NCBI GenBank assembly: GCA_001873435.1
Contig: MNZB01000004.1
Span: forward strand, 14,030-78,029
Reading direction: 5' to 3'
DNA length: 64,000 nucleotides
Source: Candidatus Pacebacteria bacterium CG2_30_36_39
GTDB lineage: Bacteria > Patescibacteriota > Microgenomatia > UBA1400 > PJMF01
Of this stretch, positions 6,507 through 58,436 are shown piece after piece (the stretch's first letter is position 1; each line of letters starts with the position of its first letter). The notes below the pieces were generated by a model. It was not told the origin of the DNA, ran no database searches, and saw only the letters and a list, made by a program, of their open reading frames with translations. A program made the translations under genes and the position numbers.

Positions 6507-7778
6507 TTAATGCTTTAAAGCTTCTCTTTGTTCAATGCTGTGAAAAATTAAGATCACCAAAATCAAAGGAAAAAATGCCATTAAAGCAGTTTTATGTGAA
6601 CCAAAATTATCCAAAGCAAAACCAATAGCTGGAAACAATACAATAGAAATAATATTGCGCACAAGACTCTCCAAAGAACCAAGAGTAGCACGCATATTCT
6701 TTTGATAAAAATATTGTTTGAATGGACTCATGATTGGAGAAATTAATGAACTAAATGAGAAATAAACTACAAAAAATATTAAACCAGCAATAGGACCAGA
6801 AACAACAAATAAAGATGTTAAAACTAATAATCTAGCAACCATCATGATTTCCAAATATTTTTTTTCTGAAGAAAATTTCTTACTAAAATATTTAGGTACC
6901 AAACTAAAAACTGCCCCCATCAAAGAACCCAAGGCAACCATAATAGGTAAATTTCTTACATCCAATTTAAGATCCAATAAAAATGATTGATAAACTACAT
7001 CTGAAAAAAATAGGTTTACCACTTCACTAAAAATACCAACAAATAATAATTTTTTAACAACTGGATGAGAACTTGTATATTTAATTGCTTGTTTAGAAAT
7101 TTTAACTGTATCAGCAAAATTCTTTTTTAAAGAAAAAGTAACTTTTCTGGTTTTTTCTTTCAAACCAGAAAGAATCATGGCACCAACAAAATAACCCACA
7201 CAACCAGTTAACCACAAAAAATCTAAACCCTGGTGACTCTGACCAAAAACAAAATATTGAGTAGTAGCACCAACTAAGTACAAAAAGATAATTGCATTTA
7301 AATTTGAAAAAGCAGTAGCAAATTGATAAACAAACTCAAAGGTTGAATAAAACTTATTAATCAAATCTTCTCTTTTAGCTTTTTTGGCAATGTCGTAAGG
7401 TAAAGACTCAAAAGCTCCAGAACTAAATGTATAAGCAATTCCCTTTAAACTAAAAAGAAACCACATCATCCAAGGCTCAGTAATAAAGAAAAATAAGCCA
7501 AAAATTAAAGACTGCATCAACCAACTAACTTGAACAGATTTTCTTTTGCCATATAAATCTGCAAAAACTCCAGTTGGAATTTCTGCGATTAATAAAAATA
7601 ATGATTGCAAAGACAAACCAATACCAACCTGAGTTGCTGAAAAACCTTTGGCAAAAAAGAAGGCCATAATAACCATATCAATATCTGGAATAGAAACACC
7701 TGTTCCTAAACCTAAATAAATAGGGTTAAAAAGCTGCCATTCTTTTTGCTTAAAATAATTTTTTAGCTTCTTAAACAT
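6507..7778 (-). CDS. MFS-type transporter (host-like composition), last gene of the atypical operon
   Basis: About 12 hydrophobic segments. MFS loop motif GVFADLYGKRKS (GxxxDrxGrR-like). Only a 7-nt gap to the upstream gene. Confidence 0.65.
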   Translation of the reverse strand: MFKKLKNYFKQKEWQLFNPIYLGLGTGVSIPDIDMVIMAFFFAKGFSATQVGIGLSLQSLFLLIAEIPTGVFADLYGKRKSVQVSWLMQSLIFGLFFFITEPWMMWFLFSLKGIAYTFSSGAFESLPYDIAKKAKREDLINKFYSTFEFVYQFATAFSNLNAIIFLYLVGATTQYFVFGQSHQGLDFLWLTGCVGYFVGAMILSGLKEKTRKVTFSLKKNFADTVKISKQAIKYTSSHPVVKKLLFVGIFSEVVNLFFSDVVYQSFLLDLKLDVRNLPIMVALGSLMGAVFSLVPKYFSKKFSSEKKYLEIMMVARLLVLTSLFVVSGPIAGLIFFVVYFSFSSLISPIMSPFKQYFYQKNMRATLGSLESLVRNIISIVLFPAIGFALDNFGSHKTALMAFFPLILVILIFHSIEQREALKH

Positions 7779-10152: not shown

Positions 10153-11139
10153 TTATTTGCCCAATTTTTCAGCGTTTAAATTTGTAAAGTAGGTAAAATA
10201 ATCACCATCCAAAGGAGCATTGGTAGGAACAAAAGTTTCCTCAGTTCTAGCCACAGTCTTTCCAGGAATAACTGTCTCAACAACTTTATTTTCAGCTAAC
10301 TTCATTACACTTCTGGCAGTGAAACTTGGCATAATAGCTGGATCGATTGATCTAGCACCATCATCTTCAAGTAAAATTTGACCTGTTGATAATAAAAATG
10401 GCTTGCCTTCAACAATTCCTAGTTTGGCTAATTTTTCTGGAGAATAATTACCAACCCATTTGCCTAAGCGTTCACCCCAAAGCTTTAAAGAATTAACTTG
10501 AGCATTTGGAGTATGTAAAGCAACTTCACCTGTTTGGTCATAAACCCAATATTCCATTTCGATTTCGGCAATTTCTGACCAATCATTTACTTGAACCCAA
10601 GTAGTAGATAAACCAGAAGATCCTCCATTTTCAATACCACTAGTCCATGTTTTATATGTTCTGCCGGTATCATCTAAACGAGGAGTTCTATCACCAAAAT
10701 CAACCAAGGTACCAATATATAAAGGCTTCATTACTCCATTTTCTAGAACACCAACCACAGCTGCCTCAGCCTCTAAAACGTATTGTTTTTGACCCTCAAT
10801 CATACAAAGAGCTTCTGTTGAAGCAGTATCGTGAGCTTTTGGCAAAGGCTCGATATGAGGATTTGGTTTTGAAGTAGCAATATTAAAATGCATTAAATAT
10901 CCATGCTCTGGCAAAAATTCACCTCGAGTTTGATATTGCAAAGAATCATCACTACCTACCACCAAAACTATATCTAATGGCTTAAGCAACTCTTCTAATC
11001 TGCGATGTAAATCTGGTCTAGAAAATAGTTGAGTAGCTTTTAAATGAGATAAATCAATTTCTTTGGAAATTAAATCTATTCCAGATAATTTTTCATCTTT
11101 TTCTAGAAATTCTAAATCGATAATGATTGTTTCTTTCAT
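10153..11139 (-). CDS. hypothetical protein (acidic, Trp-rich)
   Basis: 328-aa ORF with a 1-nt gap to the downstream gene, in the operon. No recognisable motif. Confidence 0.45.
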   Translation of the reverse strand: MKETIIIDLEFLEKDEKLSGIDLISKEIDLSHLKATQLFSRPDLHRRLEELLKPLDIVLVVGSDDSLQYQTRGEFLPEHGYLMHFNIATSKPNPHIEPLPKAHDTASTEALCMIEGQKQYVLEAEAAVVGVLENGVMKPLYIGTLVDFGDRTPRLDDTGRTYKTWTSGIENGGSSGLSTTWVQVNDWSEIAEIEMEYWVYDQTGEVALHTPNAQVNSLKLWGERLGKWVGNYSPEKLAKLGIVEGKPFLLSTGQILLEDDGARSIDPAIMPSFTARSVMKLAENKVVETVIPGKTVARTEETFVPTNAPLDGDYFTYFTNLNAEKLGK

Positions 11140-13233: not shown

Positions 13234-14349
13234 TCAACTATTTATTATTTTTTCCCAACTATATTTTTCATTACCAAAATGCCCATAAACAGCAGTCTGC
13301 TTATAAATTGGTTGTTTTAAATTTAAATAATTAATTGTTCCAGCCACAGACAAATCAATTAGTTCTTTGGCAAATTTTTCTATTTTTTTATCACTAACTT
13401 TGGCTGTGCCAAAAGTCTCTATCTCCAACATAACTGGTTTTTGTGCTCCAATAAAATATGCCAAACGTACTTCAGCTTTTTTAGCTAAATTATTTCCAAC
13501 AATATTTTTAGCAATAAACCTAGCTGCATAAGCACCAGATCTATCAACTTTACTAGGATCTTTACCAGAAAATGCTCCCCCACCTACCCTGGCAAAACCA
13601 CCATATGTATCTACCACTATTTTTCTTCCAGTTACTCCAGTATCTGAGGCTGGACCACCTATATACCAAGCCCCAGTACCATTAACTACTAATTGATTTT
13701 TATTAATTGAAAAACCATAAAATTCTAATACTGGCAAAACTACTTGTTGATATAAATCATTTTTTACATCTACAAGTTTCATACTCTTTTGGTGCGGTAC
13801 AGCCAAAACTACTTGGACAATACCAACTGGTTTATCATTTTCATATTGAACACTAACTTGAGTTTTTCCATCTGGCCTAAGATATGAAAGTTGCTTACTT
13901 TCTCTAACACAATCTATTTTTTCAGCCAATTTATGTGCTAACTCTATTGGAAGTGGCATAAGATTTTTTGTGTCCTGACAAGCATAGCCAAACATCATTC
14001 CCTGATCTCCAGCTCCAGCACTATCAACTCCTATGGCAATTTCTGGAGACTGATTGTGAATATAGACATTTATTGGAGATAAATTAGTAAAACCAAGGAA
14101 CCACTTAGTAAATCCAAGTCTCTTGATTTCTTCTCTGGCAATTAATTCATAATTTGGTTTTTCACCAAGACAAGTAACTTCTCCAGCCATCACCACTTGA
14201 TTTGCTGTTACTAGGGTTTCTACAGCAACCCTTCCATTAGGATCCTGCTTAAGAACAGCATCAACTACTGCATCAGATATTTGATCACAGATCTTATCAG
14301 GGTGACCAGCACAGACTGATTCTGAAGTAAAAATATATGATTGTGGCAT
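13234..14349 (-). CDS. metK: S-adenosylmethionine synthetase
   Basis: GHPDKICDQISDAVVDA and other MetK blocks. Start taken at MPQSY (14349) because GAGGAG lies 9 nt upstream; the upstream in-frame Met at 14367 lies inside the RBS. Confidence 0.95.
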   Translation of the reverse strand: MPQSYIFTSESVCAGHPDKICDQISDAVVDAVLKQDPNGRVAVETLVTANQVVMAGEVTCLGEKPNYELIAREEIKRLGFTKWFLGFTNLSPINVYIHNQSPEIAIGVDSAGAGDQGMMFGYACQDTKNLMPLPIELAHKLAEKIDCVRESKQLSYLRPDGKTQVSVQYENDKPVGIVQVVLAVPHQKSMKLVDVKNDLYQQVVLPVLEFYGFSINKNQLVVNGTGAWYIGGPASDTGVTGRKIVVDTYGGFARVGGGAFSGKDPSKVDRSGAYAARFIAKNIVGNNLAKKAEVRLAYFIGAQKPVMLEIETFGTAKVSDKKIEKFAKELIDLSVAGTINYLNLKQPIYKQTAVYGHFGNEKYSWEKIINS

Positions 14350-14351
14350 AA

Positions 14352-14503
14352 AAAAAACTCCTCTCAATAATTAAGGAGGAGTTACTTATTTTTTTTGCCT
14401 ATTTCGGCCACATCATTCCCCCTTAAGCGAACTAGCACCGTATCCTTTGCCAAAAGGCTCGGTTGCTGGACAATGTATAAACATTGCCACTCTTGATGTT
14501 GAG
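14352..14503 (-). promoter_or_regulatory. SAM-I-clan (S-box-like, possibly SAM-I/IV variant) riboswitch leader with terminator hairpin overlapping the metK RBS and start codon
   Basis: Minus-strand RNA CUCAACAUCAAGAGUGGCAAUGUUUAUACAUUGUCCAGCAACCGAGCCUUUUGGCAAAGGAUACGGUGCUAGUUCGCUUAAGGGGGAAUGAUGUGG contains the S-box signatures AUCAAGAG, GCAACC and GGUGCUA plus a closing P1 (CAACAUC/GAUGUGG). It is followed by AACUCCUCC-uuaauuauuga-GAGGAGUU-UUUUUUUU(AUG). P2 is a simple hairpin without the classic GGAGGGA/GGCCC kink-turn, so the subtype is uncertain. Confidence 0.55.
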
Positions 14504-14538
14504 AAAAATTATATCAGACTAATATTTATTTGCACAGC

Positions 14539-42088: not shown

Positions 42089-45000
42089 TTATTCAGCAGC
42101 CTCTTCATCAATAAAATCACCTGACTCAACCTTGATCTTTTTATCTTTTCTCTTCAAAACAGACACCAACAAAAACAACGTCGTTATTAACACAACAACA
42201 AAAGCTACCAAAGTAATCAACTCAGGCAAATAGAAAACAACCAATGTCCCCTTACCACTAACTTGCCACAGATTAGCCCAATTATTTAAACGATAGTGAG
42301 GTAAAAATTCATTACCACCCTTTACAAAACCCAACCATAAATCATCATAAGTCTGATCTAATCCCAAGTAACATTTTTCTCCCAAACATTGAAATGACAC
42401 TTCATGAATAGCATCGAAAGAAAGCTTATCTTCACCAACCTTAATCCTATTTAAAACAGCTTCTTGACCAATCAAACTAAGCTTTAATTGAGCCAACTGA
42501 TTGAGAGCTAATGGTTGTAAATAAATACCATCTATTTCATTCACACTCTCTTTGCCAAAAGACCTTGTTTCCCAATTTAAATAAAAGGAAGAAAAAGAAT
42601 CTTTACTAACCTGATTTAAAGTAATATACGAATCAAATACTTCATCCTGCTCCAAATAATCCTCGGCTAAAACATTAGAATCTCCATAATTAATAAAAAA
42701 CTTAGTTCCCCGACCACGATAGTTTTTCCCCATCAACCTCATCACATAAGAGTAGGAAGATGAAATATCCTTAAAACTATAACCATTGCAATTTACGGCT
42801 CTTGAATCAGCCTCATAAATTGCTCGACCATTTTCAAATTTAGTTTTTATCTCTCCTACTTGGTGATTAACACAATTAACTGAAGGATTTTGAGCCAAAT
42901 CCAACTTAATCACAGGGAAATATGAAATCAAACCAAGCTGCTCAATTTCAGGGGTTCGCAACACCAAATCTCTTTGAATAATCGCCCAATCTGGATCTAA
43001 TTCAGCAACTTCTATTGAATCGAATGAAGAACCTTTTGCCATTCCATTTTCATAAGAAATTTCGGTGGGCTTAGCAGCATATTCAATTTTAATTTTTTCT
43101 CCAACAACCAAATCCAAAACTGGATAAATAGGTTGGTTTTTATCAACAATAACCCCAAAGTTATTAAAGAAAATTACTATGCTATCAGCAACAAAGTTAT
43201 CTTCTAATTTAAACTCAAAATTCTCTAACTGAGGCAACTTAAGACTTTGCTCTCCCAAGACCAAAGTTGATTGAGGAAAATCCACAGACACCTTACCATC
43301 AGTATATTTTATGGCAGCTGGCACAAGATAAGAACTATCCTTATATCCTGGCATTAACAGCTCATACACAGCCCTAGGAACTTTGTTTACAACCTTAACC
43401 CCCAAATCATCAAATTGAAGATTTTTGGGATAGTGAGTCATTAATTCAGAAAAAGGAAACACAACATTTGGTGATTCACTGGTTAAAACATAATCACCCT
43501 CTTGTTGATATAAATAGTCTGTTCTAGTTCTATTATTATTAGCTTCAGCAAATTGAACCTTATTCGGCACCAAAATCTCTGTTTCTTTGTCAATAGCATT
43601 ACGCTCATAAATACTTAGAAAGTCCTTAGACCAAAGCTCTGAAAAGCCAGCTGCATGCAACAAAGCATGGTCAACAGCAAAGTCATGTTGGCGACTAGGA
43701 TCCATCCTAGTTTCATCTACAATCACCAAATCCACATTATATTTTTTAGCAATTTGAGCAAAATGATTGGCATTATAAGTATCAAGAGAAGTTTTTAATT
43801 CATAATAGAAAAAATCATTAGTTTCTATCCAACGATCAAAATCTCTCATTAGCAATGGTTGAGGGAAACCAAAAAAATTAAAACCCATACCTTGATAGCC
43901 ATTACCCTCACGTAAAAACTGCCAATCATAATATTCCCAACCAGCATGAGTAAATTGTGGTAACTGTAAAACTCTCAAGTCTTTGTCTAGAGTATTCATG
44001 TAATCAAACATTTCCTGATACTGAGATGGATATTTAATTTGTAGTTTTTCACTTAAAAAATGACCTTGGAATGAAGGCAATGAAATATAGATTATGATCA
44101 AAAATAAGCCGCCAATTATTGTGTTGGCAGCAAACAACCAAAGCTTTACTATTTTTTTACGAGAACACAAAAATATAGTAATTTTTTCAATTATTCCAAT
44201 AAATAATAAAATCGAAACAAAAGAATAAAGAATTGATAGCTTAGTAAATGGATTGCGAAAAGCCTCACGAAATGTAGCTGATTTATACAGCTTGTCGAGA
44301 ATTACGCTGGTAGGCAATAAATCTACCCAAATAAAAATTAGACAAAAAATATACATCAATAAAACAGCCCAGCGTTTCCAGTTTTTTTCTCGATCAAAAA
44401 TAATAGATAAACTACCTAGAATTGTTAAAATTCCCAAACCCTGCATTAAATATCTGACTAAAGATTTGTTTAAATGACTATCCCATTCATTAAAAATAAG
44501 ATCAAAGTTCTTGTTTTTAAAAGAATAATCCATCCAATTAAATAAATATTGAGTACCAGCAGTTAGGTTCTCAATAGTTCCAGATTCGCGAACACTCCAA
44601 ACAGACTCTGGTGCAAACAACTGATTATCACGGCTTTCTTGAACGTAGCGAGCGTTGTGAGAAACATAATATAAATTAGGTAAAATCCAGTAAGCATTAG
44701 CAAAAAAAGTTAGTAAGCCAACAAAAAAACTCATTTGAATCGCTGACCAAAAAGACCTTTTTTGCAGAGAAACAAAAAAGACATAAAGTAAAGAAAAAAC
44801 TACAGCCAAATAAAAAACGGTTTGCGTATGAGCGCTAGGAGCCATTAAAAACTGTAATAAAATAAAAGAAAAAACCGTTTTAATACTTACTTTATTAATT
44901 AAACTATGGAGATTGAGCAATAGAAATGGCAAGAAAGCAAATTGAATCGTAAACATCTCAAAGCTGATATAAAACTGTTGTAAAGTTAAAATATGTAAAA

Positions 45001-45433
45001 GATAAAAAACTGCGCCCAAACTAGCTAACCAATTCTTAAAATTACCAAGCTTATTGCCTAACCAAATTTTAATCAAATAAAAATACATACCAATGCCACC
45101 TAAAAGATACATTGAAAAAATAAAGACATATCTAATCAAATTAGCTGGTAATAAAATTTTTAATAAAAAAATAAACGGTAAACGTAAAATCTCTGCCGAC
45201 TGCCCCTGAGCAGCTGGACCACCCAATCCCTGATGTTCTACCCAGGCACCAAAAAATACTTGGCGAGCATAACGAGGTAAATCAAATTCTGCTTGGATAT
45301 TATCCCAACCAGAATAAATAGAGTTTGGATGGATATTAACTACAGCAATCCACAAAGCCACCACTACCACTAATAGTAGTGGTAATAAACTCAAAATTTT
45401 AGCTAATTTAAATTGCTGAAATAGCTTTTGCAA
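42089..45433 (-). CDS. large polytopic membrane protein with big extracytoplasmic domain and C-terminal TM anchor (possibly a GT-C/YfhO-like glycosyltransferase)
   Basis: About 14 N-terminal TM helices, a roughly 600-aa soluble region and a final TM helix plus acidic tail. TTG start. Family call is speculative. Confidence 0.45.
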   Translation of the reverse strand: MQKLFQQFKLAKILSLLPLLLVVVVALWIAVVNIHPNSIYSGWDNIQAEFDLPRYARQVFFGAWVEHQGLGGPAAQGQSAEILRLPFIFLLKILLPANLIRYVFIFSMYLLGGIGMYFYLIKIWLGNKLGNFKNWLASLGAVFYLLHILTLQQFYISFEMFTIQFAFLPFLLLNLHSLINKVSIKTVFSFILLQFLMAPSAHTQTVFYLAVVFSLLYVFFVSLQKRSFWSAIQMSFFVGLLTFFANAYWILPNLYYVSHNARYVQESRDNQLFAPESVWSVRESGTIENLTAGTQYLFNWMDYSFKNKNFDLIFNEWDSHLNKSLVRYLMQGLGILTILGSLSIIFDREKNWKRWAVLLMYIFCLIFIWVDLLPTSVILDKLYKSATFREAFRNPFTKLSILYSFVSILLFIGIIEKITIFLCSRKKIVKLWLFAANTIIGGLFLIIIYISLPSFQGHFLSEKLQIKYPSQYQEMFDYMNTLDKDLRVLQLPQFTHAGWEYYDWQFLREGNGYQGMGFNFFGFPQPLLMRDFDRWIETNDFFYYELKTSLDTYNANHFAQIAKKYNVDLVIVDETRMDPSRQHDFAVDHALLHAAGFSELWSKDFLSIYERNAIDKETEILVPNKVQFAEANNNRTRTDYLYQQEGDYVLTSESPNVVFPFSELMTHYPKNLQFDDLGVKVVNKVPRAVYELLMPGYKDSSYLVPAAIKYTDGKVSVDFPQSTLVLGEQSLKLPQLENFEFKLEDNFVADSIVIFFNNFGVIVDKNQPIYPVLDLVVGEKIKIEYAAKPTEISYENGMAKGSSFDSIEVAELDPDWAIIQRDLVLRTPEIEQLGLISYFPVIKLDLAQNPSVNCVNHQVGEIKTKFENGRAIYEADSRAVNCNGYSFKDISSSYSYVMRLMGKNYRGRGTKFFINYGDSNVLAEDYLEQDEVFDSYITLNQVSKDSFSSFYLNWETRSFGKESVNEIDGIYLQPLALNQLAQLKLSLIGQEAVLNRIKVGEDKLSFDAIHEVSFQCLGEKCYLGLDQTYDDLWLGFVKGGNEFLPHYRLNNWANLWQVSGKGTLVVFYLPELITLVAFVVVLITTLFLLVSVLKRKDKKIKVESGDFIDEEAAE

Positions 45434-45535
45434 AACATCTCATTGTAGAACAATATTGAGTAAGTTTTGTAGGCTCATTTTATTTTACAAACCAAAAGAA
45501 ACAAAAATTATTAATAATTATTACCTTTGGTTTGT

Positions 45536-45556
45536 TGGGGCGGTCTAGGACCGCCC
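45536..45556 (-). terminator. perfect GC-rich palindrome GGGGCGGTC-TAG-GACCGCCCC downstream of the GC-rich lipoprotein gene (no U-tract)
   Basis: 9-bp perfect stem 28 nt past the stop of 45584..46414. Confidence 0.4.
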
Positions 45557-45583
45557 CAACATGGGTATAACAAGGTGAGAAAA

Positions 45584-46414
45584 TTACGGAGCAACAACGT
45601 TGCTGGCAACCAAGGTCCATCCCGTCGCGTTTGTATGGCGAAGAATGGTCCAGGCGCCGTTGTTCACATCGAAGAAAACGACGTAAACAACTTTGCAACC
45701 CTGAAGTCCGCAGTTGTACAAGTGGCTGTTCGCCGCTTGCTGATAGATGTACGGCTGATCCATGAAGCCGCCAGCATTCTCTTTGACCTGATATTGCGTC
45801 ACCGTGGTTGCGCCAGGGTGATATCTGGAGAAGTTAACATCCAGATTCAGGTCTCCGGGTCCAGAATTGCGACCGCGGAGATAGATTTGCCATTCCACAT
45901 CCGGCTGGGGATTGGCGACAATCGAGTAGTTGCCAAACTTCATGACAACTCCAGCAGTAGTAGTCAGCTGGTAACCGCCTTCGTGAACGAATTTGGTTGC
46001 GGTGGCATTTTCCAACGACTCTTGCGAGTCAGGAGAAATGAGAGCCGCACTCGGATTGGCTTTGCGTTCGGCTTCGGTTTCGACGCCGACGACGCCGGGT
46101 TTGCCGCAGAAATCTTTACCGCCGGGAAGTGTGCAGACGTTTTCGTTGAAAACGCCATCTGCCCAACGATAAGCGGTGACCTTATAAGGGGCACCTTTGA
46201 TTTCGTAGCTCGGAGGTTGGATCTTGGCATTGCTTTGAGAAGGGCTGTCGTTTGATGGACCGCCTTGACCGGTGGAAACCGATTGAGTCGGGGCTACCGC
46301 AGTCACAGCAGGCTGTTCGCCGCCAGACATGTGGAAGTTACCGATATCAATGTTCCAGGGAGCGCAAGCGCTCAAAAGCACGGTCAACAACACTAGGGTT
46401 AGGGTCTTTTTCAT
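45584..46414 (-). CDS. lipoprotein, compositionally atypical (high GC, E. coli-like codon usage), function unknown
   Basis: MKKTLTLVLLTVLLSAC lipobox. RBS AAGGAG. GC-rich codons (CTG, GCG, CCG). A plus-strand shadow ORF overlaps it. Confidence 0.6.
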   Translation of the reverse strand: MKKTLTLVLLTVLLSACAPWNIDIGNFHMSGGEQPAVTAVAPTQSVSTGQGGPSNDSPSQSNAKIQPPSYEIKGAPYKVTAYRWADGVFNENVCTLPGGKDFCGKPGVVGVETEAERKANPSAALISPDSQESLENATATKFVHEGGYQLTTTAGVVMKFGNYSIVANPQPDVEWQIYLRGRNSGPGDLNLDVNFSRYHPGATTVTQYQVKENAGGFMDQPYIYQQAANSHLYNCGLQGCKVVYVVFFDVNNGAWTILRHTNATGWTLVASNVVAP

Positions 46415-46772
46415 CTTTCGTTACTCCTTGAGAGGTTTGATAGCAGTTTCGCCGCTCTAGTCCACGCTGGACTAGAGTCAGTTCACGCAATTAAAAACCA
46501 TATAAAAAGTTTCTAATTGCGCGAACCGATGGCTCAACTTCAAACTTCAAAAGAAGTAAAATTTCTCACTTGTTAAAGAGCGACTGAATTAACAGTCACC
46601 GTTGCTAAAAAGTATTTCGCTTAGAACATTCGTAGTGAATGAGTAGCGAGCAAGCTCTTCAGCCAAAAATCTTTTTATAAAAAACAAGACTTTTGGCTAA
46701 AGATCTGAAAGCAAAAAATTATTTTAATTAACTAATACTCTTGGTATATATATGTTTTTTTACACCAGGCTT

Positions 46773-46813
46773 AAGTATAGCACTAAAAGACCATTTTGTC
46801 AATGTTATAGGAT
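46773..46813 (-). promoter_or_regulatory. sigma70 promoter TTGACA-17-TATACT with upstream TATCCTATA element (drives 45584..46414 through a ~350-nt structured leader)
   Basis: Minus strand TATCCTATAACATTGACAaaatggtcttttagtgcTATACTtaagcctgg. Confidence 0.55.
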
Positions 46814-46845
46814 ATATTTTGGCTTATTTTATAATTAAAAGTTTC

Positions 46846-46875
46846 AGATCCCTGCCCATGTAAATGGACAGGGAT
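46846..46875 (-). terminator. hairpin GATCCCTG-N14-CAGGGATC downstream of 46892..47320
   Basis: 8-bp stem 17 nt after the stop. On the minus strand it is followed by TGAAACTTTT. Confidence 0.4.
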
Positions 46876-46891
46876 CTTGGCCAATTACGGC

Positions 46892-47320
46892 CTATGGAGT
46901 TGGTGTTGGGGTTGGAGTAAGAGTAAACACCGGCGTGAGCGTCGGTGGTGGTGTGGGTGTCCAAGACTGAGCAGTTGCAGTTTTTGCTGCCACCGCTATT
47001 GCCTTGTTCTCTGCCTCGATCTTTTTATCGATCTCGGAGATATCACCTTCAACCTTTTCGAGTTGAGCCTTTCCTTCTTCGATTTTTGCTTCGATCTCAA
47101 CTTTGCTGTCAAGCAAAATCAATTTCTGACAAATCAGAGGAAGTTCATCCTCTGGCATACTGGTGATTGAACCGAATTCATTTTCTCGGCCAATCACTTT
47201 TAATGCATCGTAGCAGGAGGCTGCCGCTTTTTCCTTTTCAGTTGCGAAAAGGCCGGAGCAGCTGCTCAACACAAAAATCCCTACTACTGCCAACAACAGG
47301 AAGATGTGAATCTTCTTCAT
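46892..47320 (-). CDS. small lipoprotein with coiled-coil segment and C-terminal Thr/Pro repeat tail, compositionally atypical (higher GC)
   Basis: MKKIHIFLLLAVVGIFVLSSC lipobox. A/E/K-rich heptad-like stretch. C-terminal TPTPPPTLTPVFTLTPTPTPTP. RBS GGAG. Confidence 0.6.
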   Translation of the reverse strand: MKKIHIFLLLAVVGIFVLSSCSGLFATEKEKAAASCYDALKVIGRENEFGSITSMPEDELPLICQKLILLDSKVEIEAKIEEGKAQLEKVEGDISEIDKKIEAENKAIAVAAKTATAQSWTPTPPPTLTPVFTLTPTPTPTP

Positions 47321-47403
47321 TGTTGCTCCGTCACTCCATGAGATTTAGATCCGTCACAGCGCAAGCGCTGTAACGATCCCCCTTCTAGAGAAGTGACCTG
47401 GTA

Positions 47404-47444
47404 AGTATAACAAAATAGATCAAAATAGTCAATGTTATAGGATA
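47404..47444 (-). promoter_or_regulatory. sigma70 promoter TTGACT-17-TATACT with upstream TATCCTATA element (drives 46892..47320)
   Basis: Minus strand TATCCTATAACATTGACTattttgatctattttgtTATACTtaccagg. The leader contains the palindrome ACAGCGC-AA-GCGCTGT. Confidence 0.55.
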
Positions 47445-52435: not shown

Positions 52436-52509
52436 CGGAGAGTGGCGCAGATGGCTAGCGCGCGCGCATGGGGTGCGCGAGGTCGCAGGTTCGAGTCCTG
52501 TCTCTCCGA
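52436..52509 (+). tRNA. tRNA-Pro (anticodon GGG), C1:G72 acceptor, no encoded CCA
   Basis: CGGAGAG-TG-GCGC-AGATGGCTA-GCGC-G-CGCGC-ATGGGGT-GCGCG-AGGTC-GCAGG-TTCGAGT-CCTGT-CTCTCCG-A. Cloverleaf is consistent. Anticodon loop AUGGGGU. Confidence 0.85.
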
Positions 52510-54143
52510 CAATCAGAAAAAAAGCCCTTTTTCTCAAAAGTAGCGAATGGTTCTTCTAATTGATACTTCGCTACTTTTTTGTTATTCACACGTAGGTTCG
52601 AGAAGATTTTTTCAATCAAATAATTTTTTCTACTTAGAGATTTGGTTTTGACGATCTCATCGGGCAATTTCTTAACTTGTTCGGTGAATTTAGAAAATGT
52701 CAAAATACTTGATTTGTTATTCTCAATCTGTTTTTCAATCTCAATTAATGCTGATTCAAATTCTTTGAGCTTTTTTCTATTTTCTTTCAGCTCTGATTCA
52801 TAATCTTCTCGTAGCTCTCGATCAGATATATCAAGTAGATACTTTTTGATTTTGATATTTTGCTGATTTAGACCAGCTTTTTGCGTAACAATTGATTTTT
52901 GTTCTACCCTGAGTAAAGCTAACCTATCTTTTTGAACCCTTTTAGACTCCTCTACATAATGCTCATATACCTCTTTTGTGGCAATGTTGGTATTTTTAAG
53001 AAAATCAACAACAAAATCTACTAAAACTCTAGCTCTAACGTGGTGTTGAACTTTTTTACCTGAGATATTTTTAAAAGAACATTTTTTGTTGTCACATCTA
53101 AAATAAAACTTGTTACCTTTGCTTGGTGAAGTGATTGAAACATACATTGTTTCACCACAATGATCACAAATAACTCGACCATTAAGTAGTCTACCCTTAA
53201 CATTCTTTTTCACTCTCTTGTCATATCTCCTCAAGAATGATTCTCTGTTTTTCTTAGTAATATTATTGATCTTGAAAAAGTGAGCAGGGCTAACTACTGG
53301 CACGAAATCAAATATCTCCATCAAATTAATAACCTTATCGCCATATCGCATTACCCCTGCATAAATTGGATCTGAAAACATTTCACTCAGACGTTTTTGA
53401 TCAAATGAATAGGGTTTTCTTTGATTTATCTTATTCGTTACTGGCTTAGTAAAATTATGTGTGTTGAGATACTCCTCAATTTCTCTATATATAGCCCCCT
53501 CAAACCTCATTTTCCAAGCTTCCCTGATCAAGACATAGTTATCACCATCGGGCTGTAATCGGTGCATATCGTCTTTAAAATAACCGTGTTTTGGTACTGT
53601 TAGCCAACCACCCTCTTCGGCTCTCTTATGAAGCCCTCTTTTTACATCTTTACTCAGAGCATCTGAATATTGTTTTGATAAAACAAAAGTAATGCCCAAC
53701 ATCACCTTGCCTGATTCATTATTTTCAAAGGAAAAAGAGGGAAATTTTAGATCCTTGATAATTCCTTTATCAAGCAGATCAATAATTTCACCTGCTTCTT
53801 TCATATTTCGAGCTAAACGATTTGGATGCCAAGCTAAAATACCTTGATACTTACCAGCCTTTACATCTTCAATCATTTTTCTAAACTTAGGACGAATATC
53901 AGGGTCTTTAGCACTCTCTTTTTCCTGAATATATGGCTCTATAACAATGAGCTTCTCTTTTCGAGCAAAGTTAAGGCACTCATCAATCTGGTCTGGAAGT
54001 GATTTCTCTTGTTTATCTTTGTCTTTTGTTGATCTTCGAGCATACAAAACATACTTGTATGATTTTGGATCATCTTCAACAATGGTATCTGCTTTTAAAT
54101 TTTTGAAGTATTCAAAAAAATCTTTTTGAGTAATATCAACCAT
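52455..54143 (-). CDS. large serine recombinase (resolvase/invertase catalytic domain + recombinase domain + zinc ribbon + coiled coil)
   Basis: N-terminal YARRSTKDKDKQEKSLPDQ (catalytic Ser), zinc ribbon CDHCGETMYVS...FRCDNKKC, 562 aa. The 3' 55 nt overlap the tRNA-Pro on the opposite strand. Confidence 0.85.
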   Translation of the reverse strand: MVDITQKDFFEYFKNLKADTIVEDDPKSYKYVLYARRSTKDKDKQEKSLPDQIDECLNFARKEKLIVIEPYIQEKESAKDPDIRPKFRKMIEDVKAGKYQGILAWHPNRLARNMKEAGEIIDLLDKGIIKDLKFPSFSFENNESGKVMLGITFVLSKQYSDALSKDVKRGLHKRAEEGGWLTVPKHGYFKDDMHRLQPDGDNYVLIREAWKMRFEGAIYREIEEYLNTHNFTKPVTNKINQRKPYSFDQKRLSEMFSDPIYAGVMRYGDKVINLMEIFDFVPVVSPAHFFKINNITKKNRESFLRRYDKRVKKNVKGRLLNGRVICDHCGETMYVSITSPSKGNKFYFRCDNKKCSFKNISGKKVQHHVRARVLVDFVVDFLKNTNIATKEVYEHYVEESKRVQKDRLALLRVEQKSIVTQKAGLNQQNIKIKKYLLDISDRELREDYESELKENRKKLKEFESALIEIEKQIENNKSSILTFSKFTEQVKKLPDEIVKTKSLSRKNYLIEKIFSNLRVNNKKVAKYQLEEPFATFEKKGFFSDCRRDRTRTCDLAHPMRAR

Positions 54144-54160
54144 ATCATCATTTTAAACCT

Positions 54161-54640
54161 TTAAGATGGTGGTGTAAGAGTGTAACCCATATTATCTAGT
54201 ATTCTTTGATACGCACCTAGTAAGTTATTAATTGTTTTTGGATCATTTTTAACACTCTCTATTGCTTGATTTTCGGCTTCTTTGATCTCATCTCGACTGA
54301 ACTCTTCCTTTGTTGCTCTGCTGTTTGTTGCAACCCATTGAATGAACTTGATCTGATCTCTGGTAAGTCCAGAGCCACCTGCTTGTTTGGTTTTAATCAA
54401 TTCTAATTCGTTGCTAACAATCTCGGCTACTACTATTGACAGGTGGTTTTGGGCTACCTCAATTCTTTCCGCAAATTCTGAATTTTCAGATTGCAAATCA
54501 TAGATGGTTGACTTTGGTATTTGGGCTTTAAGACAGGCTTTATTGATACTCAAACCAGCCTTTAAGTATGGTTCTAGTTTTCGGAAGAGTGTATCAACTT
54601 GTTTATCACTTAGGGCTGGTCTGCCTATATTTTGACTCAT
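54161..54640 (-). CDS. HTH DNA-binding protein resembling phage terminase small subunit N-terminus (tentative)
   Basis: GRPALSDKQVDTLFRKLEPYLKAGLSINKACLKAQIPKSTIYDL follows the GRP...e.i...G.s...c...gis..T pattern of TerS-type HTH domains. Confidence 0.4.
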   Translation of the reverse strand: MSQNIGRPALSDKQVDTLFRKLEPYLKAGLSINKACLKAQIPKSTIYDLQSENSEFAERIEVAQNHLSIVVAEIVSNELELIKTKQAGGSGLTRDQIKFIQWVATNSRATKEEFSRDEIKEAENQAIESVKNDPKTINNLLGAYQRILDNMGYTLTPPS

Positions 54641-54707
54641 ACTTTAATTATAAAAGAAATAAATCAGATTTTTCTGTTTTTGATGTGTTTATAATGCGTT
54701 ATAAAGA

Positions 54708-54740
54708 ATGCAAAAAGGGCTAATGTTTAATTAGCCCTTT
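54708..54740 (-). terminator. intrinsic terminator AAAGGGCTAAT-gttta-ATTAGCCCTTT plus U-run, after the Ltp gene
   Basis: Perfect 11-bp stem followed by TTTTTGCATTC on the minus strand. Confidence 0.6.
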
Positions 54741-54767
54741 AGTATTCGATTAAACAGATTGGTGATG

Positions 54768-55316
54768 TTATAAACCTACAGCATCAGCTCCATAACTGGC
54801 TTGTTCTGTTGTAAAGCCTTCAAACTCTAATTGATTTATTAAGCTTTCTCTTGAATAACCAGAAATATCTAGGTACGACTTAGCCTTTTTTGAGGCTTGT
54901 TCATTCCAATCAGCCCCAACTGCATCAACTGCATAAGTAGCATCTTCTGTAGAGAACTTTTCAAACTCTAGTTGTTTTATTAAGCCACTTCTTGAATAGC
55001 CTGAAATACTCAAATATGACTTTGCTTTTCTAACAGCATTTTTTTGAGATACAGTTTCGGAAGCATTACTATCTTCCGATTTGGTTGTGTCACTTTCTTC
55101 AATGACTTCTGTATTAGGTGATATGGTATTAGATTGGCTAGTTGGTGTATCACTACCACCAGAACTAGCTCCAATTACAATAAAGAGAAGGATAATTCCT
55201 AGAATACCAGTTAATATCGGGTGACGTTGTGCCCAATTACCCTGCTTTTCTTGACAATACGGACATTTTTTTGCTTTGTTATCGATTTCTTTTTGACAGC
55301 TACGACATTTTTTCAT
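54768..55316 (-). CDS. Ltp-family (host cell surface-exposed lipoprotein) superinfection-exclusion-like protein with N-terminal zinc ribbon and TM anchor
   Basis: CRSCQKEIDNKAKKCPYCQ ribbon, TM helix, Ser/Thr-rich linker, then two copies of AKSYL.ISGYSR.GLI.QLEFE.F..E.A.Y..DAVG (the Ltp repeat known from TP-J34-like prophages). Confidence 0.7.
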   Translation of the reverse strand: MKKCRSCQKEIDNKAKKCPYCQEKQGNWAQRHPILTGILGIILLFIVIGASSGGSDTPTSQSNTISPNTEVIEESDTTKSEDSNASETVSQKNAVRKAKSYLSISGYSRSGLIKQLEFEKFSTEDATYAVDAVGADWNEQASKKAKSYLDISGYSRESLINQLEFEGFTTEQASYGADAVGL

Positions 55317-57928: not shown

Positions 57929-57970
57929 TATCCTATAACTATTGATTAATTACATATTTTGTTATACAAT
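57929..57970 (+). promoter_or_regulatory. sigma70-like promoter TTGATT-17-TACAAT with upstream TATCCTATA element; ~195-nt leader to the GC-rich small membrane protein gene
   Basis: Plus strand TATCCTATAACTATTGATTaattacatattttgttaTACAAT. Fourth occurrence of the TATCCTATA-N3..7-(-35) arrangement. Confidence 0.5.
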
Positions 57971-58170
57971 GATAGATTCTGCAAAATAAATAAAGTTGTG
58001 TTATCGCAACACTTATTTTTGTTTAGTCTGCAGTAAGTTCTTTAAAAAAACTTGTTGTAATTATTCTTTGGCGATCAGCACTCAAGATATCTATTTTGGT
58101 ATTTTGAGCGCTGTTCACCAAGAATGGCCATCTTACCCATTCCGGGTGAGACGTAGATTTGGAGGAAGTT

Positions 58171-58380
58171 ATGAACTTCGCAATCCTATTCTTTGGCGGG
58201 TTATTGCTGATTGTGGTGGGCTTTGTGCTCATCTTGATCAACATGGCTAAAGCCAGAAAACGCGAGTCAACCGGTAAAACTATCGGCGGACACTGCGGCG
58301 GCATGGCAATTATGTTCGTAGGAATTGTCGTTACCCTCTCGGGAACGATTGGTTGGCTCATCGCCAACTTTCCTTTCTAA
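58171..58380 (+). CDS. 69-aa two-TM small membrane protein, compositionally atypical (higher GC)
   Basis: MNFAILFFGGLLLIVVGFVLILINMAKARKRESTGKTIGGHCGGMAIMFVGIVVTLSGTIGWLIANFPF. RBS GGAGG 5 nt upstream of the ATG. The track start is an upstream TTG. Confidence 0.55.
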   Translation: MNFAILFFGGLLLIVVGFVLILINMAKARKRESTGKTIGGHCGGMAIMFVGIVVTLSGTIGWLIANFPF

Positions 58381-58403
58381 CGAATTGCTCAACAAGTTAT
58401 TCA

Positions 58404-58436
58404 AAGCGCCGGGTTCTGCCTGGCGCTTTTTTTATT
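58404..58436 (+). terminator. canonical intrinsic terminator AAGCGCCgGG-ttctg-CCtGGCGCTT plus T8
   Basis: GC-rich stem followed by TTTTTTTATTT, 24 nt after the stop of the small membrane protein gene. Confidence 0.6.

What the first reader, a model, noticed from the sequence alone, without database searches (positions are those of the whole stretch)
46415..46765. 350-nt highly structured 5' leader between promoter P2 and the lipoprotein start
The predicted transcript from the TATACT -10 at 46773 must traverse three strong hairpins before reaching the RBS. They are a 13-bp stem (AGCCAAAAGUCUU...AAGAUUUUUGGCU), a 9-bp stem (CGCAATTAG...TAATTGCG) and a perfect 10-bp stem with a 3-nt loop (CTCTAGTCCA-gcg-TGGACTAGAG). 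A leader this long and structured suggests a cis-regulatory RNA (riboswitch, thermosensor or protein-binding leader) or an independent sRNA.
Basis: seen in the sequence. Interest (0 to 1): 0.55.

Follow-up and report, generated by a model that had tools for sequence, protein, structure and literature searches.

The report
Conserved boxA-containing structured mRNA leader
The long, hairpin-rich stretch in front of this lipoprotein gene is a real, evolutionarily conserved RNA leader. Its only invariant sequence is identical to the 'boxA' signal that ribosomal-RNA operons use to make RNA polymerase resistant to termination, so it is most likely an uncatalogued example of that known control device in an uncultured ultra-small (CPR) bacterium.

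Summary

The leader is conserved. Relatives of Candidatus Pacebacteria (CPR) carry a 325-830-nt structured leader upstream of the orthologous surface-protein gene. In the four alignable leaders, 18 of 50 base pairs show compensatory changes, and conserved G-U pairs fix the strand.

Across 14 aligned leaders with 39% mean column identity, the only invariant block is G-C-n-C-Y-U-U-a-A-C-A. In the window this is GCUCUUUAACAA (46581-46570). That is 12/12 identical to the E. coli rrn boxA, and a hairpin abuts it as boxB does in rrn leaders. A 20-30-bp hairpin, a short GC hairpin and, in about half the leaders, a sequestered Shine-Dalgarno follow.

Best reading (confidence ~0.5): a NusB/S10 loading site that makes RNA polymerase termination-resistant, joined to a domain controlling translation or processing, much like the phage lambda nutL-N leader. 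Riboswitch, thermosensor and independent sRNA are not supported, and no Rfam family matches.

Not tested: transcription start, Nus genes, and the clade's own rRNA boxA.

Novelty is moderate: a new variant of a known kind.

The parts
46797..46813 (-). Promoter-upstream motif plus -35 hexamer: ATCCTATAAC-ATTGACA
   Evidence: The same 15-17-mer occurs exactly at the neighbouring promoter P1 (47442-47428). It also occurs at the orthologous promoters of L001 and L006. Variants (YCYATAAYWNTTGACA) occur at L007, L009, L010, L012, L020, L022, L024, L025 and L037.
46774..46802 (-). Sigma-70-type promoter P2: TTGACA-17-(TG)TATACT; predicted start near 46767
   Evidence: Matches 11 of 12 consensus positions, with an extended -10. 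An equivalent promoter lies at the head of every orthologous leader. No transcription-start data are available.
46415..46767 (-). Predicted ~350-nt 5' leader RNA of the lipoprotein mRNA
   Evidence: z = -9.9. Orthologous leaders are 325-830 nt long. Their boxA-to-SD segments have z from -4.6 to -9.2 in 17 of 17 loci.
46653..46706 (-).
   Evidence: Conserved in L036, L026 and L001, with compensatory changes at 3 of 14 pairs. One pair shows four different standard pair types.
46618..46648 (-). Small stem CGCU/AGCG enclosing hairpin CAUUC-ACUAC-GAAUG (46641-46627)
   Evidence: The inner hairpin has compensatory changes at 3 of 5 pairs. The outer CGCU/AGCG stem is seen only in single-sequence folds.
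46580..46600 (-). boxB-like hairpin GGUGACUG-UUAAUU-CAGUCGC, abutting and overlapping the first two bases of boxA
   Evidence: A 7-11-bp hairpin ends 0-12 nt before boxA in 15 of 17 leaders. This is the same order and adjacency as boxB-boxA in the E. coli rrn leader.
46570..46581 (-). boxA: GCUCUUUAACAA
   Evidence: - Exact match to the consensus GYTCTTTAANA (PMC5725501). It is one of only two exact matches in the window.
- 12/12 identical to the E. coli rrn leader boxA.
- It is the only invariant block in the 14-leader alignment.
- Across 37 loci the relaxed motif gives 18 sense-strand hits and 1 antisense hit, against 4.2 +/- 1.6 expected for both strands together. Sixteen of the hits lie in the leader.
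46547..46559 (-). Pyrimidine-rich anti-SD-like element UUACUUCUUUUGA
   Evidence: Predicted partner of the Shine-Dalgarno; the SD is paired with P = 0.99. A CUYCUU element lies 25-45 nt after boxA and plays the same role in L036, L007 and L014.
46478..46529 (-).
   Evidence: Eight of 20 pairs have compensatory changes. A 16-35-bp hairpin starts 17-73 nt after boxA in 14 of 17 leaders. The MFE folds show interrupted long stems in the other three.
46455..46477 (-). Perfect 10-bp hairpin with a 3-nt loop
   Evidence: I6. Positional equivalents with different sequence occur in L026, L001, L006 and others.
46423..46429 (-). Shine-Dalgarno AAGGAG(U)
   Evidence: Lies 8 nt before ATG 46414. Predicted to be paired.
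45584..46414 (-). Lipoprotein gene (276 aa, lipobox LSAC). It belongs to a clade-specific surface-protein family with no Pfam or NCBIfam model.
   Evidence: It is homologous (23-65% identity) to the gene that follows the leader in the other loci, or that follows a small membrane-protein gene in L012 and L037. Its GC content is 0.53 against 0.35 for the window.
45535..45559 (-). Strong GC hairpin UUGGGGCGGUC-CUA-GACCGCCCCAA, 25 nt after the stop codon, with no adjacent U-tract
   Evidence: An equivalent 10-14-bp GC hairpin follows the orthologous gene in all 14 loci examined. It may be a terminator or a 3' stabiliser.
42089..45433 (-). Downstream co-oriented 1114-aa multi-pass membrane protein gene, a conserved synteny partner
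   Evidence: No Pfam, NCBIfam or PDB match. No promoter carrying the ATCCTATAAC motif lies upstream of it.

Best explanation
The region is the 5' leader of the lipoprotein mRNA, transcribed from promoter P2. It belongs to a conserved leader family of Pacebacteria-like CPR bacteria.

The functional core is an rrn-type module: a boxB-like hairpin directly followed by single-stranded boxA (GCUCUUUAACAA, 46581-46570).

Inferred mechanism:
1. As boxA emerges from RNA polymerase it is bound by NusB-S10 (NusE). Together with NusG and NusA, these convert the elongating polymerase into a processive, termination-resistant complex, as at rRNA operons and lambda nut sites.
2. This complex carries transcription through the rest of the long untranslated, strongly folded leader and the gene. 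It may also carry it past the GC hairpin after the gene into the 1114-aa membrane-protein gene.
3. The 3' half of the leader consists of a closing helix that pairs a CUUCUU element with the Shine-Dalgarno, a 22-bp hairpin and a 10-bp hairpin. It is inferred to set translation efficiency and/or mRNA processing and stability. In this it resembles the RNase III-sensitive, SD-occluding structure between nutL and the N gene of phage lambda.

Shown here: the structure, its conservation and covariation, the invariance of boxA and its identity to the consensus, and the conserved order of elements.

Inferred only: Nus binding, antitermination, and any RNase III or translational role.
For: 1. Conservation in orthologous loci. 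The promoter and a long leader sit upstream of the orthologous surface-protein gene in L001, L036, L026, L006, L009, L007, L010, L012, L014, L015, L016, L020, L022, L024, L025 and L037.

2. Structure is under selection. On the four-sequence alignment, 94.5% of cells are paired, against 39-51% when the partners are slid. Eighteen pairs have compensatory changes, against 2-6 in the slid controls, and 0 of 500 shuffles reach the observed values. Invariant G-U pairs fit only the sense strand.

3. BoxA is the only invariant block. In 14 leaders with 39% mean column identity, only G.C.C.UU.ACA is invariant. The invariant or pyrimidine-restricted positions (G2, C5, Y6, U7, U8) are those reported as critical for NusB-NusE recognition. 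C or U at position 6 is the natural Aquifex/E. coli difference (PMC3177189).

4. Match to known boxA. The window motif is an exact match to GYTCTTTAANA (PMC5725501). It is 12/12 identical to the E. coli rrn boxA, which lies 2 nt after the boxB hairpin and 93 nt before 16S.

5. Enrichment. Across 365 kb of related loci there are 18 sense-strand and 1 antisense-strand matches, against 4.2 +/- 1.6 expected for both strands. Sixteen matches are in the leader, 150-226 nt before the start codon.

6. Flanking hairpins. A hairpin abuts boxA on its 5' side in 15 of 17 leaders. A long hairpin follows in all.

7. Accessibility. BoxA is unpaired in the centroid fold.

8. Second example. A leader in the same window (57977-58170, plus strand) has the same promoter motif and the same order of elements: hairpin, GUUCUUUAAAA, long hairpin, GC hairpin, SD.

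9. Precedent. BoxA-dependent Nus regulation of non-rRNA transcripts is established (PMC5725501; PMC12360218).
Against: - An exact consensus match alone is expected about once per window by chance (1.27 +/- 1.07). The case rests on conservation, not on the match.
- No nusB, nusA, nusG, rpsJ or rho gene was found among the ~45 window ORFs scanned. No rRNA operon is present in the window or in any locus. So neither the presence of the factors nor the clade's own rRNA boxA could be checked.
- BoxA lies 150-430 nt from the predicted transcription start, not promoter-proximal as in rrn.
- Five leaders carry A at position 4 (equivalent to position 3 of GYTCTTTAANA). The effect of this on NusB binding is unknown.
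- BoxA is itself complementary to the Shine-Dalgarno. It is the predicted SD partner in L001, L026 and L024, so the motif could be conserved for pairing rather than for protein binding.
- The coding sequence is not consistently C-rich and G-poor. A special need for protection from Rho is therefore not evident.
- rrn-type complexes are known (own knowledge) to be poor at overriding intrinsic terminators.
Confidence: 0.5

Rival explanations
1. Nus-dependent repression rather than antitermination. As in the E. coli suhB 5' UTR, NusB/E bound at boxA would inhibit translation and so promote Rho-dependent termination, giving feedback or growth-rate control of the surface protein.
For: The suhB precedent exists, and boxA regulation has been predicted to be widespread (PMC5725501; PMC12360218). 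The leader already sequesters its SD.
Against: BoxA is 150-226 nt from the start codon in all 17 leaders. The bioinformatic search in PMC5725501 considered only boxA sites within 50 bp of a downstream start codon. The boxB-boxA order matches rrn leaders. The strong consensus promoter and the 3' stabilising hairpin suggest the gene is built for high expression.
Confidence: 0.12
2. A purely RNA-based translational gate. The conserved CUCUUU/CUYCUU sequences would be anti-Shine-Dalgarno elements. The leader would then be a structural switch, opened by temperature, by a protein or by processing, with no Nus involvement.
For: The SD is predicted paired at P >= 0.83 in 8 of 17 leaders. The partner is a CUYCUU element after boxA (W, L036, L007, L014) or boxA itself (L001, L026, L024).
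Against: - SD pairing does not explain the invariance of G2 and of the 3' ACA.
- The pairing partner is not conserved, and SD pairing is weak in L006, L020, L025 and L022.
- Any boxA is intrinsically complementary to AAGGAG.
- The closing helix encloses a domain of about -60 kcal/mol, unlike known thermometers. No Rfam thermometer matches.
Confidence: 0.13
3. An mRNA-stabilising or processing leader of a very abundant surface-protein mRNA. The hairpins would protect against 5' decay, or would be RNase III sites that create a stable mature 5' end. The boxA-like block would be incidental or have another role.
For: The gene has a near-consensus promoter. Its coding sequence is GC-rich in an AT-rich genome. 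A strong conserved 3' GC hairpin follows it. Near-perfect hairpins of 20-30 bp occur in every leader. Long structured 5' UTRs are known for S-layer and outer-membrane protein mRNAs (own knowledge).
Against: The first ~60 nt of the predicted transcript are AU-rich, unstructured and not conserved. Classical 5' stabilisers need a hairpin at the 5' end. This reading does not explain an invariant single-stranded 11-mer identical to boxA.
Confidence: 0.15
4. A riboswitch or other ligand-sensing element.
For: Only the length and the strong structure.
Against: No Rfam family matches at gathering threshold or at E<=10, either in the window or in eight orthologous loci. Outside boxA no loop, bulge or junction nucleotides are conserved, and helix lengths vary freely. 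There is no intrinsic terminator to serve as an expression platform.
Confidence: 0.03
5. An independent small RNA, or an untranscribed spacer with DNA-level palindromes.
For: The antisense strand also folds better than chance (z = -6.7), as any palindrome-rich DNA would.
Against: There is no terminator between the promoter and the coding sequence. Invariant G-U pairs would be A-C mismatches on the other strand. The promoter is conserved at the head of the leader in all loci. The hairpin sequences are not repeated elsewhere in the window.
Confidence: 0.04

Closest known systems
rRNA operon leader antitermination signal (boxB-boxA-boxC; rrnTAC with NusA/B/E/G, S4, SuhB)
   Same: The boxA 12-mer is identical to that of E. 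coli rrn. A hairpin lies immediately 5' of boxA, downstream of a strong promoter, in a long untranslated and highly structured RNA.
   Different: It precedes a protein-coding gene, not rRNA. BoxA is 150-430 nt from the predicted start, against about 35 nt from rrn P2. No boxC equivalent has been established, although a purine-rich 'CAUACAGRAA' follows boxA in many leaders. Factor binding is untested.
Phage lambda pL-nutL-N leader (own knowledge, plus PMC2800207 and PMC3177189 for boxA recognition)
   Same: Overall layout: a promoter; a boxA plus hairpin Nus site about 200 nt upstream of the start codon; then a long double-stranded RNase III-type hairpin and an occluded Shine-Dalgarno before the gene.
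   Different: In lambda, boxA precedes boxB, and boxB binds the phage N protein. Here the hairpin precedes boxA, there is no N-like protein, and the gene is chromosomal.
suhB 5' UTR boxA and other predicted mRNA boxA sites (Baniulyte et al. 2017, PMC5725501)
   Same: A boxA consensus in the 5' UTR of a protein-coding gene. This is the precedent that Nus factors regulate mRNAs.
   Different: The boxA sites predicted in that study were required to lie within 50 bp of the start codon, and suhB boxA represses translation. Here boxA is 150-226 nt upstream and embedded in a large conserved structure. The gene function (surface protein) is unrelated to translation.
CRISPR-array leader boxA (Nus factors prevent premature Rho termination of long untranslated arrays; own knowledge, referred to in PMC7862264)
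   Same: BoxA is placed ahead of a long stretch of untranslated, hairpin-rich RNA.
   Different: The target here is an mRNA leader of a few hundred nt, not a multi-kb non-coding array.
Other processive-antitermination leaders of surface-structure operons (RfaH/ops-JUMPstart, LoaP leaders, EAR RNA)
   Same: A long leader ahead of cell-surface genes, with a similar proposed logic: modify RNA polymerase early so that it completes a long operon.
   Different: No sequence or structure match. The Rfam E-value scan of the region returned only weak, sub-threshold hits to unrelated families. No NusG-paralogue gene lies nearby. The conserved element is boxA, not ops.

Membership tests
BoxA (NusB/NusE-binding) Nus-factor element | Sequence matches the boxA consensus (GYUCUUUAANA; E. 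coli rrn UGCUCUUUAACAA) | tested here: met
   GCTCTTTAACA at 46581-46571 is an exact match. It is 12/12 identical to the E. coli rrn leader sequence retrieved here.
BoxA (NusB/NusE-binding) Nus-factor element | Positions critical for NusB-NusE recognition (G2, C5, pyrimidine 6, U7/U8) are conserved among orthologues | tested here: met
   These are the invariant or pyrimidine-only columns of the 14-leader alignment. The critical positions are taken from PMC3177189.
BoxA (NusB/NusE-binding) Nus-factor element | Lies in the nascent transcript, in sense orientation, downstream of a promoter | tested here: inconclusive
   The orientation and a conserved predicted promoter fit. No transcription-start or RNA-seq data are available.
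BoxA (NusB/NusE-binding) Nus-factor element | BoxA is single-stranded, with an adjacent stem-loop (boxB-type dsRNA next to the boxA site) | tested here: met
   A hairpin abuts boxA in 15 of 17 leaders. BoxA is unpaired in the centroid fold, but its mean pairing probability in the partition function is 0.24-0.85.
BoxA (NusB/NusE-binding) Nus-factor element | The same motif is present in the organism's own rRNA leader or spacer | not testable with these tools
   No rRNA gene is present in the window or in any fetched locus.
BoxA (NusB/NusE-binding) Nus-factor element | The genome encodes NusB, NusE, NusA and NusG (and Rho as the target) | not testable with these tools
   None was found among the ~45 window ORFs scanned with Pfam. 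The rest of the genome is not available.
BoxA (NusB/NusE-binding) Nus-factor element | NusB/E binding and boxA-dependent change in termination or expression | not testable with these tools
   This needs an experiment.
Riboswitch | Conserved ligand-binding core, plus an expression platform | tested here: not met
   No Rfam match. Only boxA is conserved. There is no terminator.
RNA thermometer (ROSE / fourU type) | A short, marginally stable hairpin occluding the SD | tested here: not met
   The SD is closed by a long-range helix around a very stable domain. No Rfam thermometer hit.
Independent sRNA | Own 3' end or terminator, separate from the downstream coding sequence | tested here: not met
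   No terminator-like site lies between 46774 and 46414.
5'-terminal stabiliser UTR (ompA / S-layer type) | A stable hairpin at or within a few nt of the mRNA 5' end | tested here: inconclusive
   With the predicted start near 46767, the first ~60 nt are unstructured and not conserved. The real 5' end, or a processed one, is unknown.

The most novel reading that the evidence does not exclude
In these ultra-small CPR bacteria, the Nus complex may have been recruited as a dedicated controller of the major cell-surface protein locus. BoxA binding would both make RNA polymerase termination-resistant and, by competing with SD-sequestering helices (boxA itself pairs with the SD in some leaders), couple translation of the surface protein to the availability of NusB/S10. 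That would link surface-protein output to ribosome-synthesis status. This would be a new regulatory logic, and the first non-rRNA Nus regulon in Patescibacteria. A second leader in the same window (57977-58170) hints at a small regulon.
Probability: 0.2. Interest if true: 0.65.

Novelty: new variant of a known kind. Interest (0 to 1): 0.45.

Why it matters
Almost nothing is known about gene regulation in Patescibacteria/CPR. A conserved, uncatalogued leader RNA carrying an rrn-identical boxA in front of a clade-specific surface-protein gene would have three consequences.

First, it would extend Nus-factor control of mRNAs to a very distant phylum and to a new functional class, namely cell-surface proteins, which are central to the epibiotic lifestyle.

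Second, it gives a defined RNA family (promoter motif, boxB-like hairpin, boxA, long hairpin, occluded SD) that could be added to RNA family databases and used to annotate CPR genomes.

Third, it offers a compact natural module for testing how boxA-loaded polymerase, RNA structure and translation initiation interact.

It is not a new principle. BoxA regulation outside rRNA is already documented.

Tried and rejected
- Rfam returned only three tRNAs and a SAM-I/IV riboswitch elsewhere in the window at gathering threshold. At E<=10 on 46300-47000 it gave only sub-threshold miRNA-like hairpin hits. Eight orthologous loci gave only tRNAs.
- ARAGORN found no tRNA or tmRNA in the region.
- Covariance model R1, built from the four alignable leaders, recovered them at 110-130 bits. 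It found more distant members only weakly (L021, L037, L022, L015, L016; E = 1e-3 to 0.4) and missed the others. Outside boxA, the family is conserved in architecture rather than in sequence.
- BoxA regex hits in L031 and L038 lie inside an ORF and were discarded.
- The 362-aa gene call in L001, which begins inside the leader at the boxA ATG, was rejected. Homology starts at residue 75, a lipoprotein signal with a good RBS starts at 10208, and the window has an in-frame stop 9 nt upstream of its own ATG.
- I tested whether the GC-rich 'gene' might be a non-coding RNA. It is not: there is a strong third-position substitution bias.
- I tested whether the coding sequence is C-rich and G-poor (rut-like) as a rationale for anti-Rho protection. 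This is not consistent across loci.
- A search for rRNA genes, to compare the clade's own boxA, found none in 37 loci.
- A search for Nus and Rho genes in the window found none.
- The AlphaFold model of the lipoprotein was too poor (pLDDT 53) to justify a fold search.
- The membrane protein has no NCBIfam, Pfam or PDB match.
Full report
**1. What is in the sequence**

The finding lies on the minus strand, in the 477-nt gap between two lipoprotein genes: 46892-47320 (142 aa) and 45584-46414 (276 aa, signal peptide ending in the lipobox LSAC).

A near-consensus promoter is present: TTGACA (46802-46797), 17-nt spacer, TG-n-TATACT (46779-46774).

All three are longer than described:
- 46706-46653, with 24-nt arms;
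- 46529-46478, with 21-22 bp;
- 46477-46455, a perfect 10 bp.

Two more hairpins are present, at 46641-46627 and 46600-46580.

The 351-nt leader folds at -122.4 kcal/mol, against -72.5 +/- 5.0 for dinucleotide shuffles (z = -9.9). The antisense strand reaches only z = -6.7. No terminator-like site lies inside the leader.

**2. No known RNA family**

Rfam 15 finds nothing here at gathering threshold. At E<=10 it gives only sub-threshold generic-hairpin (miRNA-type) matches. ARAGORN finds nothing.

**3. Organism and synteny**

The flanking genes are RecA, RNase Y, SecG, a family-5 solute-binding protein and a 1114-aa multi-pass membrane protein with no family assignment.

Homologues of the membrane protein were retrieved from one genome scan and one metagenome scan. 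They come from Candidatus Pacebacteria and other Patescibacteria MAGs, so the window belongs to a CPR bacterium of that neighbourhood.

The lipoprotein itself has only five close homologue clusters. It is nevertheless a true coding gene. Against an 84%-identical homologue the differences by codon position are 35/28/102.

It belongs to a clade-specific family. Pairwise BLASTP links the proteins encoded downstream of the leader in 17 loci at 23-65% identity. They share a C-terminal domain and carry different N-terminal anchors.

These genes are GC-rich (0.47-0.58) relative to their genomes (0.34-0.48). In all 14 loci examined they are followed by a very strong GC hairpin, and then by the membrane-protein gene.

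**4. The leader is conserved as an RNA**

In the syntenic contig L001 (54% protein identity) the promoter is retained, including the upstream string ATCCTATAACATTGACA. A ~372-nt leader follows, with z = -8.7.

Four leaders can be aligned over most of their length: the window, L036, L026 and L001. RNAalifold predicts 50 pairs, of which 18 have compensatory double changes.

The explicit count on this alignment gives:
- 94.5% of cells paired, against 39-51% when partners are slid by 1-3 columns;
- 18 compensatory pairs, against 2-6 in the slid controls;
- 0 of 500 shuffles reaching the observed values.

The alignment has only four sequences and the structure was derived from them, so these numbers lean in favour of the structure. 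Even so, pairs showing all four Watson-Crick types (columns 77/110 and 271/298) are hard to explain otherwise.

Several pairs are invariant G-U. On the other strand they would be A-C mismatches, so the functional strand is the mRNA-sense strand.

More distant loci have leaders of 325-830 nt. The segment between boxA and the SD has z = -4.6 to -9.2 in 17 of 17 loci. Nearly all of these segments contain a 16-35-bp hairpin starting 17-73 nt after boxA.

**5. The key element is boxA**

A MAFFT alignment of 14 distinct leaders around the middle of the leader has 39% mean column identity. Its only invariant columns spell G-C-n-C-y-U-U-a-A-C-A. In the window this is GCUCUUUAACAA, at 46581-46570.

It matches the boxA consensus GYTCTTTAANA derived by Baniulyte et al. 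(PMC5725501) exactly.

It is also 12/12 identical to the boxA of the E. coli rrn leader. I retrieved that sequence to check my memory of it: it has a median of seven copies per genome, lies 93 nt upstream of the 16S gene, and sits 2 nt after the boxB hairpin GCCGCUGAGAAAAAGCGAAGCGGC.

An exact match alone is not significant in a 64-kb AT-rich window. It is expected 1.27 +/- 1.07 times, and two were observed. The significance comes from three other facts:
- Conservation at the same place in otherwise divergent leaders.
- Enrichment. In 365 kb of related loci a relaxed pattern hits 18 times on the sense strand and once on the antisense strand, against 4.2 +/- 1.6 expected for both strands. Sixteen hits lie in the leader of the surface-protein gene, 150-226 nt before its start codon.
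- The pattern of invariance. G2, C5, pyrimidine-6 and U7/U8 are the nucleotides reported to make the specific NusB contacts. C versus U at position 6 is the natural Aquifex/E. coli difference (PMC3177189).

A 7-11-bp hairpin ends 0-12 nt before boxA in 15 of 17 leaders. In the window it overlaps the first two boxA bases. This is the boxB-boxA order of rrn leaders. It also fits the double-stranded-RNA site contiguous with the boxA site on NusB-NusE proposed in PMC3177189.

**6. The 3' half of the leader**

After boxA the elements come in this order:
- a purine-rich stretch (GUGAGRAAU, or GCAUACAGRAA in other sub-groups);
- in many leaders, a CUYCUU element;
- the long hairpin;
- one or two short GC hairpins;
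- the SD.

In the window the SD is predicted to be paired (P = 0.99) with CUUCUU, 25-30 nt after boxA. This forms a helix that closes the whole 3' domain.

The same arrangement is predicted in L036, L007 and L014. In L001, L026 and L024 the predicted SD partner is boxA itself. In L006, L020, L022 and L025 the SD is weakly paired.

SD occlusion is therefore frequent but not universal, and its partner is not fixed.

**7. Mechanism proposed**

Most likely (confidence about 0.5), boxA is a loading site for NusB-S10. With NusG and NusA these convert RNA polymerase to a termination-resistant, fast-elongating form. This allows completion of a long, untranslated, strongly folded leader and of the downstream gene or genes.

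The 3' domain would set translation and/or processing. The overall layout is: promoter; a Nus site about 200 nt upstream of the start; a long RNase III-type hairpin; an occluded SD. This most resembles the phage lambda pL-nutL-N leader (own knowledge).

The steps shown here are structure, conservation, motif identity and order of elements. Binding, antitermination, RNase III cleavage and translational effects are all inferred.

**8. What weakens the proposal**

- The window carries no Nus or Rho gene among ~45 ORFs scanned. No rRNA operon is present in the window or in the loci. The two most direct in-silico tests could therefore not be run: whether the clade's rRNA leaders have the same boxA, and whether nusB is present.
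- BoxA sits 150-430 nt from the predicted start, not close to the promoter.
- BoxA is inherently complementary to AAGGAG, so a pure anti-SD role cannot be excluded. That role does not, however, explain the invariance of G2 and of the 3' ACA.
- The coding sequence is not consistently C>G, so I have no independent sign that it is unusually Rho-sensitive.

**9. Rivals**

- suhB-type Nus-dependent repression: 0.12.
- An RNA-only translational gate: 0.13.
- A stabilising or processing leader of an abundant mRNA: 0.15. This could coexist with the main model.
- Riboswitch: 0.03.
- sRNA or untranscribed spacer: 0.04.

Details are given in the rival-explanations section.

**10. Novelty and score**

Nus/boxA regulation beyond rRNA is established, for suhB and for other predicted targets (PMC5725501; review PMC12360218). 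I also recall it for CRISPR arrays (own knowledge).

A full-text search found no paper that connects Nus-type boxA with Patescibacteria. The leader family is absent from Rfam.

I therefore rate it a new variant of a known kind, of moderate interest (0.45). It is a solid comparative-genomics lead, and a useful annotation for CPR genomes, but not a new principle.

Noticed in passing
window 57932-58432 (+): A second leader with the same architecture. The promoter carries the ATCCTATAAC motif (57932-57972). The leader spans 57977-58170 (z = -6.5). Its elements, in order, are: a hairpin; GUUCUUUAAAA (58037-58047, the only other exact boxA-consensus match in the window); a long hairpin (58062-58127); a GC hairpin; GGAGGAAG; and ATG at 58171. 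The gene encodes a 69-aa two-TM protein, followed by a terminator near 58405-58432.
   Followed up: partly
window 46797-46813 (-) and 47428-47442 (-); also L001:9789, L006:8264 and variants in other loci: The conserved string ATCCTATAAC lies immediately upstream of, and fused to, the -35 TTGACA of several strong promoters. It is exact at both lipoprotein promoters P1 and P2. Variants (YCYATAAYWNTTGACA) occur in at least 10 related loci. It may be an extended promoter element or an activator site specific to this clade.
   Followed up: partly
window 45535-45559 (-); equivalents in 13 other loci: A very strong GC hairpin (GGGGCGGUC-CUA-GACCGCCCC) lies 25 nt after the lipoprotein stop codon, without an adjacent U-tract. 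It is conserved in position in every orthologous locus. In several loci it is followed by AACCCyUUUGUUCAUUU. It may be an atypical terminator or a 3' stabiliser.
   Followed up: partly
window 45500-47400: The two lipoprotein genes form a GC-rich island (about 0.45-0.55) in a ~0.30-0.35 GC background. The orthologous surface-protein genes are GC-rich in all loci (0.47-0.58 against 0.34-0.48). The cause is undetermined; amino-acid composition, expression level and foreign origin are all possible.
   Followed up: partly
window 42089-45433 (-): A 1114-aa multi-pass membrane protein is conserved across Pacebacteria-like genomes (41-60% identity). It is encoded next to the surface-protein gene, usually immediately downstream of it. 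It has no Pfam, NCBIfam or PDB sequence match. Its function is unknown.
   Followed up: partly
window 52436-55316: A large serine recombinase gene (52455-54143, -) overlaps the end of tRNA-Pro (52436-52510, +). An Ltp-type surface lipoprotein gene lies nearby (54768-55316, -). This is probably an integrated mobile element or prophage remnant at a tRNA gene.
   Followed up: no
window 14381-14504 (-): A SAM-I/IV riboswitch (54.5 bits, above gathering threshold) lies directly upstream of the S-adenosylmethionine synthetase gene (13234-14367, -).
   Followed up: no
L007:8215-8445 (-) and L010:~6860-7105 (-): A conserved ~230-nt structured element lies on the strand opposite to the surface-protein gene, just upstream of its promoter. 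Its 3' part looks tRNA-like, with a T arm, a long variable arm and an extended acceptor-like stem. Neither ARAGORN nor Rfam calls it. The two copies share 46 predicted pairs, 8 of them compensatory. It is unexplained.
   Followed up: partly
L014:5700-5990: The spacer between the surface-protein gene and the membrane-protein gene contains several tandem copies of a ~50-nt unit (…CAACTTGCGTTAAAAAATTAATCATCAGGCGTTAAAAATCAATCAACAGGTG…). I saw this only in the printed sequence.
   Followed up: no
L012:2895-3230, L022:4177-4515, L037:3811-4152, L025:2426-2761, L007:7363-7668: A ~100-113-aa secreted, Cys-containing small protein gene often precedes the boxA leader. In L012, L022, L037 and L025 the nearest recognisable promoter lies upstream of this gene. 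BoxA is then intercistronic rather than in a primary 5' UTR.
   Followed up: no
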